From Zootoca vivipara (taxonomy: Eukaryota), in NCBI RefSeq assembly GCF_963506605.1, contig NC_083278.1, positions 95,294,001 to 95,358,000 on the forward strand: 64,000 nt of DNA, written 5' to 3'. How positions within the stretch are numbered: position 1 is the first letter of the stretch; every line of letters starts with the position of its first letter. Made by a program: the position numbers and the translations under genes. Below, piece after piece: positions 14,966-50,108 of the stretch. The notes beneath the pieces are model-generated. The model saw nothing but the letters and a program-made list of their open reading frames with translations, ran no database searches and was not told where the DNA came from.

Positions 14966-16336
14966 TGCATCATGGGTGGGCCAGCCCTGAGCCAATAGAA
15001 TCCTGCCAAGTAATCAAAGGAGAGGGGTCAGGCTTCCAAGAACCCTGAATTTCAAGCCAAGTAGCTTTATATTTGTTTTTCTCAAACAGAAGCAACCTAA
15101 GCTACATAAAAAAGTGGTTATGAACTAGAGGGGAACTTCAAAATTAGTTTCAGATACATTCTGGAGGTAAAAAGAAAAATCCCACTGAGCTAGTACAACC
15201 AGCTAAGCAGTTCTATGGATCCCAGCAAGAGAACTTAAACGCCAGTTTTTCTAAGCTCATAGATTTGCCCATAGATTCCCTTGTGAATTGAAATGATGCA
15301 AAATCATCCCATATTGCTAAGTATATAAGCAATGTAGCGCCAGCTCCCCACTAACCTACAATTATTTAGATAGCAAATAAGTTTGCTCATTGAAACTATG
15401 CAGCACATTTCCTCCCTTTTTATTTTTTATGTAATCCAGAATATAATTTGCCAATGTATACCTGAAGTCCCAGGGAAGAACTTGCGCAGTCCCAACAGGG
15501 AACCATTGTTGTAGCTGCCATTAAGCCCTCATTACAAGGAACACTTGGTTTTAAAAATCCCCACAGGCATTCTGCCAGGTCAAACTTATTTGGAAGCTTT
15601 TCAGAAGGCAACTCTGCAATTTGGCAAAAGACATAAAACAGGGGATTTAGCAGGATTAAGGTTTTAAGGTTAATTCTGGAAGGAAACTAACTTATTTTAA
15701 GCTCCTAATGTCATACTAAAGGTATGGTGATTTTTTAAGGTGGCTTTTGGGGGTGTGTGTCAAAAATTGGCCTTTTAAAATTTATATAACAAGCTTAGCT
15801 GTAAAGCTATCTCTCTTATGAAAGATGTTCCAAGGGAAGAGATGGCAGAAAAGGAATGTTTCCTTCCAAAAAAAAAAAAAATATCCCCCTACATTTATGG
15901 TGGGATTCACTTAATGAACAGAAGGGCAACACCTCCCCACCAGAAAAAGTTGGCTGGGTGGGGTTGGAAACAGCAGGTGGGGGGAGGGGAGATCATTTCA
16001 CCTGCCAAGCCAATATGCTTGGGCAAACAGAACATTGTAAATAGCATAACAATTGAATTCCACCTATAGGAAATATTTTTTTTATAAAAAAAAATTGATG
16101 GGATTTCTGCAGCATGTGGAATTACAGCTATAGATAATACCTGCATGTTGGTATGTGTCATGTGACAAAGGTATTTGAGAGCAGAAGCAATAAAGGAGTC
16201 TAGAAATGTTGTGAAATGCTGAAAAGCTGCAGAATCATTTAGCGTGCTTGAATCACTGAGACTCATTTTGAGGATGACTCATTCTCTGTATAAGTACGTA
16301 TTGTAGCTGCTTGCAGGCAGACTCAGTGTCTCTCTC

Positions 16337-16431
16337 GTGTATCTGAAGAAGTGTGCATGCACACGAAAGCTCATACCAAAATATAAACTTAGTTGGTCTT
16401 TAAGGTGCTACTGAAGGAATTTTTTTGATTT
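16337..16431 (+). mobile_element. Penelope-like element pseudo-LTR fragment
   Basis: CTGAAGAAGTGTGCATGCACACGAAAGCTCATA...AAACTTAGTTGGTCTTTAAGGTGCTACTG; related copies at 20270-20397 and 22145-22200. Confidence 0.8.
16339..16376 (+). ncRNA. Minimal type I hammerhead ribozyme motif (Penelope-associated)
   Basis: Stem I GTAT/ATAC, core CTGAAGA, stem II GTGTG-CATG-CACAC, GAAA, palindromic stem III AGCT, cleavage UH = TC (16371-16372). Confidence 0.7.
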
Positions 16432-17228: not shown

Positions 17229-17691
17229 CATAGCTGCCAAGTCTCCCGTTTTTCACAGGGAAACCCCGTATTTTAAACCGTTTCCCACTGGCAGCCCAGA
17301 TTGGAAAAAATCCCATAAATCCCCTGGATTTCCTACCTGCCAGGGAGGCTCCATTTTGGGTCCTGGCGCTGCCCGATTTCCGGTGCCCATACATGGGTAG
17401 CGCGGCACCGGAGGTCGCTTCTATGCATGTCCGGACATGCGTAGAAGCGACTTCCAGTGCCGCTCTGCCCATGCCTGGGAACTGAAAATCAGACAGAGCA
17501 GCACCGGAAGTTGCTTCTACGCATGTCCGGGCATGCATAGAAGCGACTTCCGGTGCCGCGCTACCCATGTATGAGCACCAGAAATTGGGCGCCGCCGGCA
17601 CCGGAAGTTGCTGTAGACATGTGTAGAAGCGACTTCCGGTGCCGCGCCGCTGCTGATCCCGCATTTTTCAGCGGGAGACTTGGCAGCTATG
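17229..17691. mobile_element. Non-autonomous hAT element (MITE) with internal palindrome array
   Basis: TIR CATAGCTGCCAAGTCTCCCG/CGGGAGACTTGGCAGCTATG; perfect TSD AACAAAGG; palindromes at 17403-17462, 17499-17558, 17596-17644. Confidence 0.92.
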
Positions 17692-20149: not shown

Positions 20150-33258
<13,109 letters not shown>

Positions 33259-33384
33259 CCTCAAGCCTGGGTCCCCCACCCCCTTCAAGCCGGCTCCCCT
33301 GAACACACCCACAGGTCACACACAGGTGATCTACTGGAGGCCTCCCCAGTGCCTTGCCCACCCAGAAAGCCTCTCCCCTCAGTC

Positions 33385-37534: not shown

Positions 37535-40500
37535 ATGGCTGAAGATGAGAAAAAGGTCTTGATTGAATATAACAAGATGAGGGACCCTGGATGCCTGCTG
37601 GAAGGAAAGACCGAAACGGCCTGGCTCAGGCCTCAGAGAAGACATTATCCCTATTCTAACCGCAATTCGGCAGAGATTTTTAAAATAGTGAAGCATGAGT
37701 ACATCAGTGACAGGGCCTCCTGGATAACAATTGCCCCTCCTGAAAACAGGGAAAAGAGGCATTTCCAGGAAAAAAGTAAGCTAATTCGTAATATAGTGTG
37801 ACACACAATATTGCCAATCTCCACAGCAGAGATTACAGGGAGTTCCAGGCACTCTTTAGCCCAGGTTTGTGTTTCCTTTTGGACAATGAGGAACAGCGGA
37901 GACTGAGGTGTCTTTATGATATATGGTTTATCTACATATCTATACAATCTGAGCCTATGATGGAGGGGCATCCAGCATTACAGTCCAATAGGGTTCCGTT
38001 TCTCCCTTGGACTCTTCCTTAGATTCAACTGTCCGCCCACATTGTGCTCTGACTCCCACCTTTCTCCAGCAAACTGTAATTATCTTTCTTCCAGCTTACA
38101 CCATGCCCACTGCAATCCTGAAACTCCCTTCCTGAAACTCTGGTGTTGTCTTTGGCTAGCCATCCAGAACCTGGGATGGAGCACATAGTCTCGGCCCAGT
38201 ATACCTGAAGGAGCGTCTCCACCTCCATTGTTCAGCCCAGACACTGAGGTCTAGCTCCAAGGGCCTTCTGGTGCTTCCCTCACTGCGAGAAGTAGTACCT
38301 CGGTTTATGAACTTAATCTGTTCTGGAAGTCCGTTCTTAAACCAAAACGGCTCTTAAAACAAGGCACACTTTCCCTAATGAGGCCTCCTGCCACCAGTTC
38401 CCTTTCACCGTTTGGATTCCATTCTTAGACTGAGGTAAAGTTTGCAAGGTAAAAGTAAAGGTAAAGGACCCCTGACAGTTAAGGCCAGTTGCGAACGACT
38501 CTGGGGTTGCGGCACTCATCTCGCTTTACTGGCTGAGGGAGCCGACGTTTGTCCACAGACAGTTTTTCTGGGTCATGTGGCCAGCATGACTAAGCTGCTT
38601 CTGGAGAAACCAGAGCAGTGCACGGAAACGCCGTTTACCTTCCCGCCGGAGCAATACCTATTTATCTACTTGCACTTTGACATGCTTTCGAACTGCTAGG
38701 TTGGCAGGAGCTGGGACTGAGCAACGGGAGCTCACCCCATCACAGGGATTCGAACCGCTGACCTTCCGATTGGCAAGCCCTAGGCTCAGTGTAAACCAAA
38801 TCGTTCTTAAACCGGACTGTTCTTAAACTGAGGTACCTGCTGGGAGCTGCCCGGAGTGGCTGGGGAAACTCAGATGGGCAGGGTATAAATATTATTATTA
38901 TTATTATTAGCCTTCTTAATGGCTTTGTTAATGGGTCATTACCCTTCCCTTTCCCCTCTTTCAATGGTCCATCTTGCCAGGAGATTGCTTCATCAGGAAG
39001 ACAGCCTGGCTTATAATATTTTAACATTTGCTGGGTACTGTACAGGGATTAAAAGGTCTGTCACCCACAAAAACATAATAATATATTACATTGCACCTAA
39101 ATGTTGAACTGTAGGAATCTGTAATTCTACCCCTCTCTACACGTCAACTTTGGAGGAGTAATGAGGGACACTTCTGCACAACAGTTTATAATGGATTCGG
39201 TTCTGCGCATGGATGCAGTTTTTCATAGCGTCCGCATGATGACGTCCTTCTCAAAATACCAGCCCATATTTCCCTCCTGTTTTAATCCATATTTACTTTT
39301 TCCACAATTTATTTGTTTTTTACTTATGTTTTCTGCGCTCACAGTAATGCCAGATTAAATGGGGAAATAATAAAGGACAGCATCTTTATGTGATTTATGT
39401 CATGTGCTTTGCAAAAAAATTGTGTGCATGAGTTAGCCCCTTAGTTTGCAATGGGCCTACTGGTCATTCTCTGTCCATCCTGCCTCTTGTGCTCTGAACT
39501 CCCATCTCTTCTGTTTCATTATCCTTTACCCAGCATACCATTTTCTTCTGCCTGTGGAAGCATGAAGCTGCTGAAAAGTATGGCATTATCTTTCTTTCTC
39601 CTGAGGTGCAATTCAGCTGCATTGCTTCCCTATGTTGTGTAGAGCTATGCTTGCCTCACTCCCCCAAAGCGTTGAAAACTTTCAGGGGTACATACAGTGC
39701 TTACCTGGGCTTGGTTTCCTTTGGAAGAAGGGAATAAACAGAATGAATATACAAACAAGGAGGGGGATGATCAAGAAGCGTATTCCTCTGAGGGCATATT
39801 TCCCAAGCCCATCTGCCCACCCCCACTGGCTATTTTTGCTCAATTGTAAAGACTATCAGCTAAGAAACATTCTTGTTTAGAGTCGGTGGGCGTATTTCAT
39901 GGCTGAGCTTTGCTACTGCAAACAGGTACTGGGGAATGAGCGCTGACTCAGCCACCAACTAATTCCTTGTAAAACAAAACAGAAAACTGATGTTGAGTGT
40001 GGGCTGAAGCAGCAGAACAGGTGTTTCATCATCACCACTCAATTTATTTTAGATGCTGCTTGCAAAACAATGAGGAAAAAGGCAGCACTTATTTATTTAG
40101 CTTTTTGCCTTATCTTGCCTGGCCCACAGTTCCGTGCATGATTAACTTTTAAGACTGGGAGAAAGGCCACTGAAGTAGAGTTAAAACAATTTGGTCTGAT
40201 AAATTCTCTCAAGGTTAGAGATACAGTGGTGCCTCGCTAGACGAATTAAATTCGTTCCATGGGTCTTTTCTTATAATGAAAAATTCATCTAGCGAATCCC
40301 ATAGGAATGCATTGAATTTTTTTTGAATTTTTTTTTTGCCCATAGGAACACATTAATTGAATTTCAATGCATTCCTATGGGAAACCGTGATTCGCTAGAT
40401 GGATTTTTCATAAAACGAATTCATCTAGTGAGGCAACCTCCGCTCAAAAAATCCTTTCGTTAAGCGGAAATTTCGTTAAGCAGGTCATTCGTTAAGCGAG

Positions 40501-47900: not shown

Positions 47901-48331
47901 ACAAATCCTTCACTGTACTCTTTCTAGTACCCTTAAAACACATTTTTGTTTAACAAAACAAAAGATGGAAAATGTTGATTTATGTTTTAATCTGTTTTTA
48001 GTTTATTGCTGGTTTTCTTAAATATAAAAATGCTTTAAATAGTAGTTTTTAACAGTTTTACCTGATGATTAGGTTGTTTTATTGTCTTTGTAAACTGCTT
48101 TGAGGTTTTGTTTTGTTTTTAAAAAAACATCAAGCGGTGTATAGATTTTATGAAATAAGTATGTAAAGCATGTTGCTCATGCTAATTGAATAGCCAACAA
48201 CATTGCCTTATCTCCCAGCAAACAAATCAGGAGGGGCTGCTCAATAAATGAGTTAACATATATTCTTTTTAAATTTTATTTATTGAATTTATATCCCACC
48301 CTTGCTCCCTAAGGAGCCCAGGGTGGCAGAT

Positions 48332-48368
<37 letters not shown>

Positions 48369-48535
48369 TAGTTGCACATTAATTTTTTACCTCAGACTGC
48401 CTTCTACCATCTGCTCCCATGTTTTATGGCAGATGCCCCACACCGTCTGAGAGCAATCTGTGCTTCAAATCCTTTCCAAACTACCTTAACTTGTTATATT
48501 AATGGAAAGGGCTAATGGCACAGCTACAAACTGAT

Positions 48536-48911
48536 GGGAAAATCAAATGAAAAGATTCCAAGAGCGCTGGCCAGGTAGTAGATTAATTTTTAGAAAGTTT
48601 TAAGTTGAGAATAATAAGACAAATTCCAGTAGCAATCCAGTTTTTAGAAATCCAGGACAAGGCCCTGTTTCGGTTTATTCTTCATCAGCTCTAGTTTCAT
48701 AGTTTCAAGGTCAAAGCGTACCATTCATGTTTTTCTCAACATTAACCTTGAAACTATGAAACTAGAGCTGATGAAGAATAAACCGAAACAGGGCCTTGTC
48801 CTGGATTTCTAAAAACTGGATTGCTACTGGAATTTGTCTTATTATTCTCAACTTAAAACTTTCTAAATATACCTGGTCAGAGCTCTTGGAATCTTTTCAT
48901 TTGATTTCCCC
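48536..48911. repeat. Long inverted repeat: perfect 123-bp arms (48589-48711 and 48745-48867), 33-bp spacer, imperfect outer arms
   Basis: Arms compared base by base and found identical; outer 40 bp or so have 2-3 mismatches and an indel. Confidence 0.95.
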
Positions 48912-49893
48912 AACTCTCCAAGGACTCCAATTTATTTAGTACAGCTTCAGACTGAAGCAAATTACTCCCCAATATCTCTCTCTGTGTGTGCGTGTGTGTG
49001 TGTGTACGCACCTGCGCATACACAGAAACACACATGCTGCTTCCCCCTTTTCTTCCTCCCCACAGGAGAGCAGGGGAGCAGCAAGGAGTTGGCTTCCTTA
49101 CCCCTTTGATCCCACAGCAGCTGCTGAGGTAAATGGAGGTCAGGGAGTTTGCTGGAAGGAATATGAATCTGGCAGCCTTCTCCTCTCCTCACGCCTGGCC
49201 AGCAACAACTCCTGCTTCACCCCAGGTTGCTAGAAAAACGGTCTCTGCTTCCCCATCTTATTTAATTTCAGCGCTGCAAGCAAGAGGACAGTTATCACAG
49301 GAATTTGGCTCTCACACGATTTCCACAACAGGCATGCGGAACTGGTGTTGCAGGACTCCCGTTCCTGGGTTGGACCAAAGATAGGGATAATCTAGCAGTC
49401 ACAACGGGTGACGGTCCATTGCTCAGTAGCAGAGCACATGTGTTGCATGCAGAGGGGCTGGTGTCCGATTTCTGTCTTCTCCAAGGATCAGGACAGCCTC
49501 CTGGGAGAACAGCATGTAGGCCTAGAAAAGGTCAATATCTTTGACTGGACATAACCGTCCTTTACCTTTTACCTAGTCTGATTGGGTATTAAAGCAGCTT
49601 CCTATGATCATCATTTTGGGGTTCCAACTGGATACCTGCATAGCTCCCACATTTTTTAGGAGGGTAGCACTGTGGAAGGGTGTGTCTAAGAGCCACCATT
49701 AAAAAGACGAGGAAAATGCATTATGAGAGCTCAAGGACACATTCCAGCCAGGCAAATGAACAAAGGGAAGACGCAAAACAGGGCCAGTGAGGGGAGTGGC
49801 CTGTAGGGTGTCTGAAAGGCCAGAGAGAGATGCCTTGAGGGCCACATTCTACTCCCAAGCATAAGGAGAGTTTGGATTTGATTTGATATCCCG

Positions 49894-50108
49894 CTTTATC
49901 ACTACCCGAAGGAGTCTCAAAGCGGCTAACAATCTCCTTTTCCCTCCTCGCCCACAACAGACACCCTGTGAGGTGAGTGGGGCTGAGAGACTTCAGAGAA
50001 GTGTGACTAGCCCAAGGTCACCCAGCAGCTGCATGTGGAGGAGCGGAGATGCGAACCCGGTCCCCCAGATTAGGAGTCTACCGCTCTTAACCACTACACC
50101 ACACTGGC
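49894..50108 (-). mobile_element. tRNA-derived SINE (MIR/CORE-like, L2-type tail)
   Basis: Minus strand begins GCCAGTGTGGTGTAGTGGTTAAGAG...GGGTTCGCATCTCC. Confidence 0.75.

What the first reader, a model, noticed from the sequence alone, without database searches (positions are those of the whole stretch)
48536..48911. 123-bp perfect inverted repeat whose arms each encode a hammerhead-like core
Seen: arms 48589-48711 and 48745-48867 are 100% complementary around a 33-nt spacer, while the outer 40 bp or so carry mismatches and an indel. Each arm contains CTGATGA-AGAATAAACC-GAAA-CAGGGCCTTG-TC (plus 48768-48800; mirrored on minus 48688-48656), that is a hammerhead core with self-complementary stem III and a GUC site, though stems I and II are weak. 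Established: inverted pLTRs with minimal hammerheads typify Penelope-like elements; this sequence differs from the Penelope family at 16337. Inference: (i) the identity gradient suggests arm-to-arm correction or a secondary fold-back event; (ii) a transcript from either strand makes the antisense arm first, which would trap the ribozyme in long dsRNA; (iii) it lies about 1.4 kb past the TATDN3 polyA signals between convergent genes, so read-through could feed Dicer/ADAR as an endo-siRNA source against this retroelement family.
Basis: partly seen in the sequence, partly recalled or inferred. Interest (0 to 1): 0.7.

Follow-up and report, generated by a model that had tools for sequence, protein, structure and literature searches.

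The report
Spliced, twin-primed Penelope retrotransposon stub
This hairpin is one of dozens of short mirror-image stubs of a Penelope-like jumping gene, likely copied twice from the spliced start of the element's RNA, and its ribozyme motif lacks an arm that related copies carry in an intron, so it is likely inert here while the family records how these elements insert.

Summary
The 123-bp perfect inverted repeat is real but is the core of a larger insertion (48520-48955). That insertion holds two head-to-head copies of the 5' end of a Penelope-like element (PLE) between a 15-bp target duplication. 68 of 107 family loci examined are such head-to-head pairs with varied junctions. None has two long ends; 53 pair a long with a short end, as twin priming at two start sites predicts. 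Both arms lack a ~180-nt GT..AG intron found in ORF-linked copies. The intron's 3' splice site supplies hammerhead stem I (5 bp unspliced, 2 bp here), which explains the weak stem. Arm correction is not needed: family-wide, arms diverge independently with no gradient. Three RNA runs show no reads on the nearest unique flanks, at low depth. The layout is published, and this scan noted twin-primed Penelope stubs in other genomes. The addition here is that 47 of 51 exact cores are spliced and no spliced copy was ORF-linked, which argues against the published antisense self-priming model.

The parts
48520..48534 (+). left target-site duplication copy (13/15 match to the right copy in this assembly)
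   Evidence: contigs of runs X1, X2 and X5 read the two mismatched places (48526, 48529) as in the right copy
48535..48736 (-). left arm: spliced pLTR copy from the inferred transcription start to the 'short' 3' end (reference positions 1-202)
   Evidence: blastn against a natural copy, 97%
48737..48741 (.). 5-nt filler between the two 5' ends (head-to-head junction)
   Evidence: sequence
48742..48941 (+). right arm: spliced pLTR copy (reference positions 23-231) ending at the 'long' 3' end, with a 9-nt deletion
48589..48711 (-). perfect part of the inverted repeat, left (123 bp)
48745..48867 (+). perfect part of the inverted repeat, right (123 bp)
48768..48800 (+). minimal type I hammerhead core: stem I 2 bp (spliced form), stem II 1 bp, self-complementary 12-mer at 48788-48799, predicted cut after 48800
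48656..48688 (-). the same core on the left arm
48767..48768 (+). exon-exon junction where intron-bearing copies hold a 177-188-nt GT..AG intron (mirrored at 48689/48688 on the minus strand)
48906..48941 (+). ~35-nt 'tail', present on one arm only
   Evidence: tail described in PMC8557442 and PMC11167929
48941..48955 (+). right target-site duplication copy

Best explanation
It is a short insertion of a Penelope-like element with a C-terminal GIY-YIG endonuclease, made of two intron-less copies of the element's 5' end joined head to head, and likely built in one event by twin priming on the spliced sense RNA. SHOWN: target duplication, two arms with different 3' ends, intron absent here and present in ORF-linked copies, related RT/EN coding sequence in the genome. 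INFERRED: the endonuclease makes staggered nicks about 15 bp apart. One nicked strand primes reverse transcription at the downstream start site (long arm with tail), the other at the site ~35 nt upstream (short arm). Both copy toward the RNA's 5' end, and the two cDNA ends are joined. Because the template was spliced, the intron's 3' end (UCCAG), which pairs with CUGGA to form stem I, is gone, so the hammerhead is predicted inactive even without the hairpin. The locus is likely an inert passenger.
For: 68 of 107 loci are inverted, all head-to-head: 53 long+short, 13 long+shorter, 1 short+shorter, 1 short+short, 0 long+long; solo copies end short 22, long 17. In the set picked only by the exact core: 26 of 50 loci inverted, 21 long+short, 5 long+shorter, 0 long+long, 0 short+short; solos 13 short, 11 long (P about 4e-7 for 21 of 21). 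In 30 of 68, this locus included, each arm holds >=10 nt that the other lacks, so neither arm can be a copy of the other. Target duplications are visible at most inverted loci, mostly 12-17 bp. Both arms share the four-site subfamily type in 33 of 40 loci (shuffle mean 11.7, maximum 22). Both arms share splice state in 14 of 14 scorable places (10 spliced, 4 unspliced; 2 more unscorable). Intron: G|GTAAG donor in 6 of 7 printed copies, TTCCAG acceptor in 7 of 7, a TATA-like box 32 nt before the 5' end in 6 of 6. 47 of 51 exact cores are spliced, and 20 of 30 in sister families. The 7 loci that reach >200 nt upstream all keep the intron; 0 of 79 spliced loci reach that far. Stem I is 5 bp in 7 of 7 unspliced own-family copies and 2 bp here; in sisters 3 bp (9 of 10) against 0-1 bp (20 of 20). 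In vitro, the anole PLE protein nicks and extends both strands and starts at two internal RNA sites that bound the tail (PMC11167929).
Against: No full-length copy with 5' pLTR plus ORF start was found, so that the RNA runs on past the tail is inferred only from ragged ends up to reference position 242. No RT-bearing copy of this exact family was found; RT comes from a sister family 77% alike in DNA. Splicing is inferred from DNA, not from junction reads of an intron-bearing locus. 13 of 68 second arms end well before the short site, and overlap between the arms requires strand displacement, which is untested. Same-type arms could also come from two RNAs of one source gene. Four spliced loci start 12-27 nt upstream of the main 5' end. 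For this locus alone the perfect run has p about 0.01, so local correction is not excluded. In two rarer relatives (L190, L203) the inferred spliced form could still make a 5-bp stem I (my reading). RNAfold does not form stem I even in the unspliced monomer.
Confidence: 0.78

Rival explanations
1. Fold-back (self-priming): one cDNA, or an antisense template as proposed for rotifer PLEs, folds on itself and is copied into the second arm.
For: Several junctions sit at a small palindrome near the 5' end. The arms share subfamily type and splice state. The long arm reaches further 5' in about half of the loci. Proposed in PMC3846280.
Against: In 30 of 68 loci each arm has sequence absent from the other. 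Some loci have little or no overlap between arms (L031, L159). The second arm stops at the same short site where solo copies end. Spliced copies cannot come from an antisense transcript (established: the spliceosome reads the sense strand).
Confidence: 0.1
2. A PLE stub whose inner arms are kept identical by gene conversion or cruciform repair.
For: 0 differences in 123 bp; within-locus p about 0.01.
Against: Family arm-arm divergence 201/5270 = 3.8% against 2.1-2.3% per copy; bins from the centre 3.8, 4.3, 3.3, 4.0, 6.4%. Both arms equal the family majority across the 123 bp, with no shared private change. 0.28 such loci expected among 18, 1 seen.
Confidence: 0.07
3. A co-opted hairpin locus: read-through from the TatD-family gene makes long dsRNA that feeds Dicer/ADAR against the family.
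For: Predicted hairpin of -283 kcal/mol. It lies 1.35 kb past the gene's 3' end. Left-junction contigs in two other samples suggest that it is shared between individuals.
Against: Depth 0 on unique flank bins 48388-48498 and 48943-49830 in 3 of 3 raw RNA runs; reads on the arms carry other copies' variants and flanks. It is one of at least 68 similar loci, with nothing special about its place. The depth is too low to exclude a few percent of read-through, and tissues are unknown.
Confidence: 0.05
4. A fold-back element (MITE or retrozyme) that moves as a unit, or an assembly artefact.
For: Short, dispersed, 2% divergent. No long read or contig was seen to span the whole hairpin.
Against: Junctions and arm lengths differ among loci. 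No tandem monomers were seen; the apparent tandems are the intron. Only 1 of 175 5' ends lies within 2 nt of the predicted cut. A target duplication, unequal arms and junction contigs in other samples argue against an artefact.
Confidence: 0.02

Closest known systems
Insertion units of EN+ Penelope-like elements with an inverted 5'-truncated pLTR and a one-sided 30-40-bp tail (Craig et al. 2021, PMC8557442; Arkhipova et al. 2013, PMC3846280)
   Same: Head-to-head inverted pLTR, tail on one arm only, target duplication, TATA-like box in the pLTR, RT plus C-terminal GIY-YIG in the parent group.
   Different: No ORF between the arms; both arms are intron-less and bounded by the inferred transcription start. 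The published explanation (antisense self-priming) does not fit spliced copies.
Poseidon element PAc of Anolis carolinensis (Frangieh et al. 2024, PMC11167929)
   Same: Two 3' ends about 35 nt apart, both strands usable as primers, uncleaved RNA as template.
   Different: Other clade by the linker Zn-finger-like motif (Neptune/Nematis-like). The parts that I read do not explain inverted copies or describe an intron. Its sequence file could not be read, so no direct comparison was made.
Minimal hammerheads of metazoan PLEs, including Drosophila virilis Penelope whose intron end maps to helix I (Cervera and de la Pena 2014, PMC4209133)
   Same: Type I core, extra base after the CUGAUGA box, G10.1-C11.1 pair, palindromic helix III, opposite-strand pairs 100-700 bp apart, intron end at helix I.
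   Different: Stem II is only 1-2 bp. Here genomic copies of both splice forms exist, and the spliced form loses most of stem I in this family and in the sister families.
L1 twin priming (recalled; no call)
   Same: Second nicked strand primes on the same RNA, giving an inversion between target duplications.
   Different: The arms usually overlap, giving an inverted duplication, and the second priming site is mostly fixed.
Non-LTR retrozymes (bioRxiv 10.64898/2026.07.22.740005)
   Same: Short, non-coding, hammerhead-bearing, PLE-related.
   Different: No tandem units seen; ends do not map to the cut site.

Membership tests
EN+ Penelope-like element | RT domain in the parent ORF | tested here: met
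   PF00078 E 4.8e-8 in the 675-aa ORF of L180, a sister family; own-family piece L174 is 79% identical to its residues 363-633. No RT-bearing copy of this exact family found.
EN+ Penelope-like element | C-terminal GIY-YIG endonuclease with two cysteines inside the motif | tested here: met
   CIYAWICPCQKMYIG..R..EH in L168, L178, L180. Pfam itself gave no PF01541 hit; blastp E 1e-29 to a PF01541-positive ORF of the genome.
EN+ Penelope-like element | pLTR downstream of the ORF with hammerhead, inverted copy and one-sided tail | tested here: met
EN+ Penelope-like element | Target-site duplication | tested here: met
   15 bp here
Neptune/Nematis clades | CX2-5CxxC motif between RT and EN | tested here: met
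   CGECNVC / CGRCNVC; definition from PMC8557442
Neptune clade | Placement in an RT tree with named references | not tested
   No named reference sequences were fetched.
Minimal type I hammerhead | Conserved core boxes and cut triplet | tested here: met
   Core kept across sister families while loop II and flanks vary; 192 further matches to a degenerate sister-family core.
Minimal type I hammerhead | Helix I of 4-5 bp | tested here: not met
   2 bp at this locus; 5 bp only in intron-bearing copies
Minimal type I hammerhead | Palindromic helix III allowing dimers | tested here: met
   12/12 self-complementary, duplex -18.9 kcal/mol
Minimal type I hammerhead | Self-cleavage | not testable with these tools
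   Indirect only: 1 of 175 5' ends near the cut site
Non-LTR retrozyme | Tandem units each with a hammerhead | tested here: not met
   None among 107 loci
MITE / fold-back element | Same termini and centre in all copies | tested here: not met
   Junctions and arm lengths differ among loci
Endo-siRNA hairpin locus | Transcription through both arms and small RNAs | tested here: inconclusive
   No reads on the nearest unique flanks at low depth; no small-RNA library

The most novel reading that the evidence does not exclude
Splicing is a position switch in these vertebrate Penelope elements: the first intron's acceptor is also hammerhead stem I, so the spliced 5' end of the transcript is disarmed while the unspliced pLTR at the 3' end stays armed. 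PLEs keep their intron not through an antisense template but because only the 5' copy is spliced; it yields dead stubs, and the unspliced 3' copy regenerates promoter, intron and ribozyme.
Probability: 0.35. Interest if true: 0.72.

Novelty: new member of a known kind. Interest (0 to 1): 0.42.

Why it matters
The locus itself is an ordinary dead stub. The family is useful: how PLEs make inverted copies and why they keep introns are stated as open in PMC8557442 and PMC3846280. Here the genome holds a natural record that separates the models: spliced, start-bounded, long+short head-to-head pairs fit twin priming on sense RNA and do not fit antisense self-priming. It also gives a direct bench pair, the spliced and unspliced form of one hammerhead.

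Tried and rejected
Rfam scan: no hammerhead model matched. Search for the parent through PF01541 returned the other PLE family (19 of 20 hits by their translations) and one unrelated-looking gene. Search for a copy running on past the tail into an ORF: 5 of 5 hits ended at a target duplication or flank; six longer stretches showed no 5' pLTR before an ORF start. Solved-structure and NCBIfam searches gave only weak RT hits. An extra G before the 5' end (copied cap) was seen in 8 of 21 spliced and 0 of 6 unspliced copies, too weak to use. No RNA holder was listed by the run index. No listed contig spans the hairpin's centre, and no empty-site joint was listed in 4 runs; neither proves anything. 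No earlier scan note matched by sequence. Lunse et al. 2016 is not held. Paper searches for twin priming in PLEs (2 papers, listing only), self-priming, intron-less copies and splicing with hammerheads listed no title or abstract start describing spliced PLE stubs; most subscription papers are outside the library, so absence from print is not shown.

Full report
OBSERVATION. The arms 48589-48711 and 48745-48867 are exact reverse complements around 33 nt, and each holds the core CTGATGA..GAAA..GTC. The exact core occurs 51 times in the 1.44-Gb genome, the backwards control 0 times. Rfam has no hammerhead match at E<=1. The host is a vertebrate, probably a lizard (my recall of its repeats; not tested).

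ANATOMY. Against a natural solo copy the insertion is: target copy 48520-48534, left arm on the minus strand 48535-48736 (reference 1-202), 5 nt of filler, right arm 48742-48941 (reference 23-231), target copy 48941-48955. The two target copies differ at 2 of 15 places in this assembly. Contigs of three other runs read those two places as in the right copy. Two of these contigs run 30 nt into the left arm, one letter short of the tool's bridging rule, so presence in other individuals is suggested, not shown.

THE FAMILY. Five searches and 29 fetched stretches gave 107 distinct loci. The 20 PF01541 loci were left out; L130 and L131 look like one duplicated insertion. favours inverted copies and favours long ends. 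68 of 107 are inverted, all head-to-head. 3' ends cluster at about 190-200 (short) and 225-240 (long). Pairs: 53 long+short, 13 long+shorter, 1 short+shorter, 1 short+short, 0 long+long; solos 22 short, 17 long. In the subset picked only by the exact core: 26 of 50 inverted, 21 long+short, 5 long+shorter, none long+long or short+short. In 30 of 68 each arm has >=10 nt that the other lacks. Only 1 of 175 5' ends lies within 2 nt of the predicted cut.

THE INTRON. Nine of the 107 loci carry an extra piece exactly between ..AACTAGAG and CTGATGA. It is 177-188 nt in six printed copies (512 in one with a later insertion), begins GTAAG in 6 of 7 and ends TTCCAG in 7 of 7; a TATA-like box lies 32 nt before the usual 5' end. 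47 of 51 exact cores are the joined form, as are 20 of 30 cores of sister families (192 matches, the first 30 fetched). All 7 loci that reach more than 200 nt upstream keep the intron, and none of 79 spliced loci reaches that far; four spliced loci start 12-27 nt early. Among loci found through the ORF, 19 of 20 distinct cores follow TTCCAG and none is spliced (my count). Both arms share splice state in 14 of 14 scorable places. That the piece is spliced is inferred from DNA alone.

THE RIBOZYME. The intron's last bases pair with the bases after the cut: stem I is 5 bp in 7 of 7 unspliced own-family copies and 2 bp in the window; in sister families 3 bp in 9 of 10 unspliced and 0-1 bp in 20 of 20 spliced copies. 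Stem II is 1-2 bp; the stem III region is a self-complementary 12-mer (-18.9 kcal/mol as a dimer). Against a general rule: in two rarer relatives the inferred spliced form could still pair 5 bp (my reading), and folding does not form stem I even in the unspliced monomer. An intron end at helix I is already described for D. virilis Penelope, as are opposite-strand pairs of minimal hammerheads and low activity in vitro (PMC4209133, parts 1-2 of 4 read).

THE PARENT. Upstream of intron-bearing pLTRs lie coding pieces with CxxCxxC and a GIY-YIG-type motif. A sister family, 77% alike in DNA, has a 675-aa ORF with RT (PF00078, E 4.8e-8). Pfam did not hit its endonuclease, but it matches a PF01541-positive ORF at E 1e-29. 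That locus shows the textbook layout: inverted pLTR with long end, truncated ORF, pLTR with short end. The linker motif points to Neptune/Nematis (PMC8557442, passages); no tree was built. The motif at 16343 belongs to another, abundant PLE family.

MECHANISM. Shown: the parts above. Inferred: staggered nicks; each strand primes reverse transcription on the spliced RNA, one at each start site; the cDNA ends join. This fits the in vitro finding that an anole PLE protein nicks and extends both strands and starts at two internal sites bounding the tail, using uncleaved RNA (PMC11167929, parts 1-2 of 4 and supplement 1 read; its sequence file was unreadable). The published model of self-priming on an antisense template (PMC3846280, passages and Discussion) cannot give spliced copies, nor arms that each hold private sequence. 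One RNA is favoured by identical subfamily type in 33 of 40 loci and by splice state, but two RNAs of one source are not excluded. L1 twin priming is recalled, not read.

Correction: arms differ at 201 of 5270 sites (65 loci with overlap), copies differ from the majority at 2.1-2.3%, and there is no trend from the centre. One locus of 18 has a perfect run of >=120 nt, against 0.28 expected; alone it has p about 0.01. Trapping: predicted by folding, but the core is already short of stem I. Read-through: in three raw RNA runs (about 6% of each read, tissue unknown) depth is 0 at 48388-48498 and 48943-49830; one run has 0.3-0.6 at 47944-48387; the TatD-gene exon has about 2-11. Reads on the arms carry other copies' variants and flanks. 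This is weak evidence against; small RNAs were not tested.

WHAT IS KNOWN. The layout is published (PMC8557442, PMC3846280, PMC2377424 passages). PMC2377424 states that most D. virilis and rotifer copies keep the intron and explains this by selection. Retrozymes differ by being tandem (bioRxiv 2026.07.22.740005, part 1 of 5 and passages). A review was seen as passages (PMC6765202). Earlier notes of this scan reached 'twin-primed Penelope stub' in other genomes; I had written that reading before seeing them, and they are not independent support. No note held all the words of the splicing query. Paper searches (listings only unless named) showed nothing on spliced PLE stubs, within a library that lacks most subscription papers.

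VERDICT. A real, ordinary, likely inert PLE stub: new member of a known kind. Interest 0.42, carried by the family-level evidence on splicing and insertion, not by this locus.

Noticed in passing
window 16318-16418: Stub of a second, abundant PLE family: its hammerhead motif (16343) matches the one that follows 15 of the 20 PF01541 hits in the genome.
   Followed up: partly
window 17371-17590: GC-rich fold-back repeat inside another dispersed element; matches only hairpin-shaped miRNA models below their gathering score.
   Followed up: no
window 24586, 27769, 35951, 41130, 41891, 43993, 52760, 55490, 60949: Many ~84-bp palindromic repeats hit by one miRNA model below its gathering score, probably a MITE-like family.
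   Followed up: no
window 49860-50110: High-copy SINE-like repeat between the finding and the TatD-family gene; draws most RNA reads in the region from other loci.
   Followed up: no
window 37535-37798 (+), 32437-33315 (-), 50551-50718 (-): Small ORF without Pfam hit (SPATA45-like by recall), an MFS transporter exon (FLVCR1-like by recall) and a TatD-family last exon.
   Followed up: partly
L204-L233 and further places: Sister PLE families with 192 exact core matches, many in opposite-strand pairs about 100-200 bp apart, with the same intron position.
   Followed up: partly
L090-L094: Some long ends run on to ..CAACATGG, and in three of five the target duplication begins with those letters, suggesting priming by short homology and an RNA that continues past the tail.
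   Followed up: partly
L130 and L131 (G000:C13, 39 kb apart): The same insertion with the same target duplication occurs twice, probably a segmental duplication.
   Followed up: no
L038 flank: RNA reads of run X22 carry a family copy joined to sequence matching this locus's flank, so at least one other copy is transcribed as a passenger.
   Followed up: no
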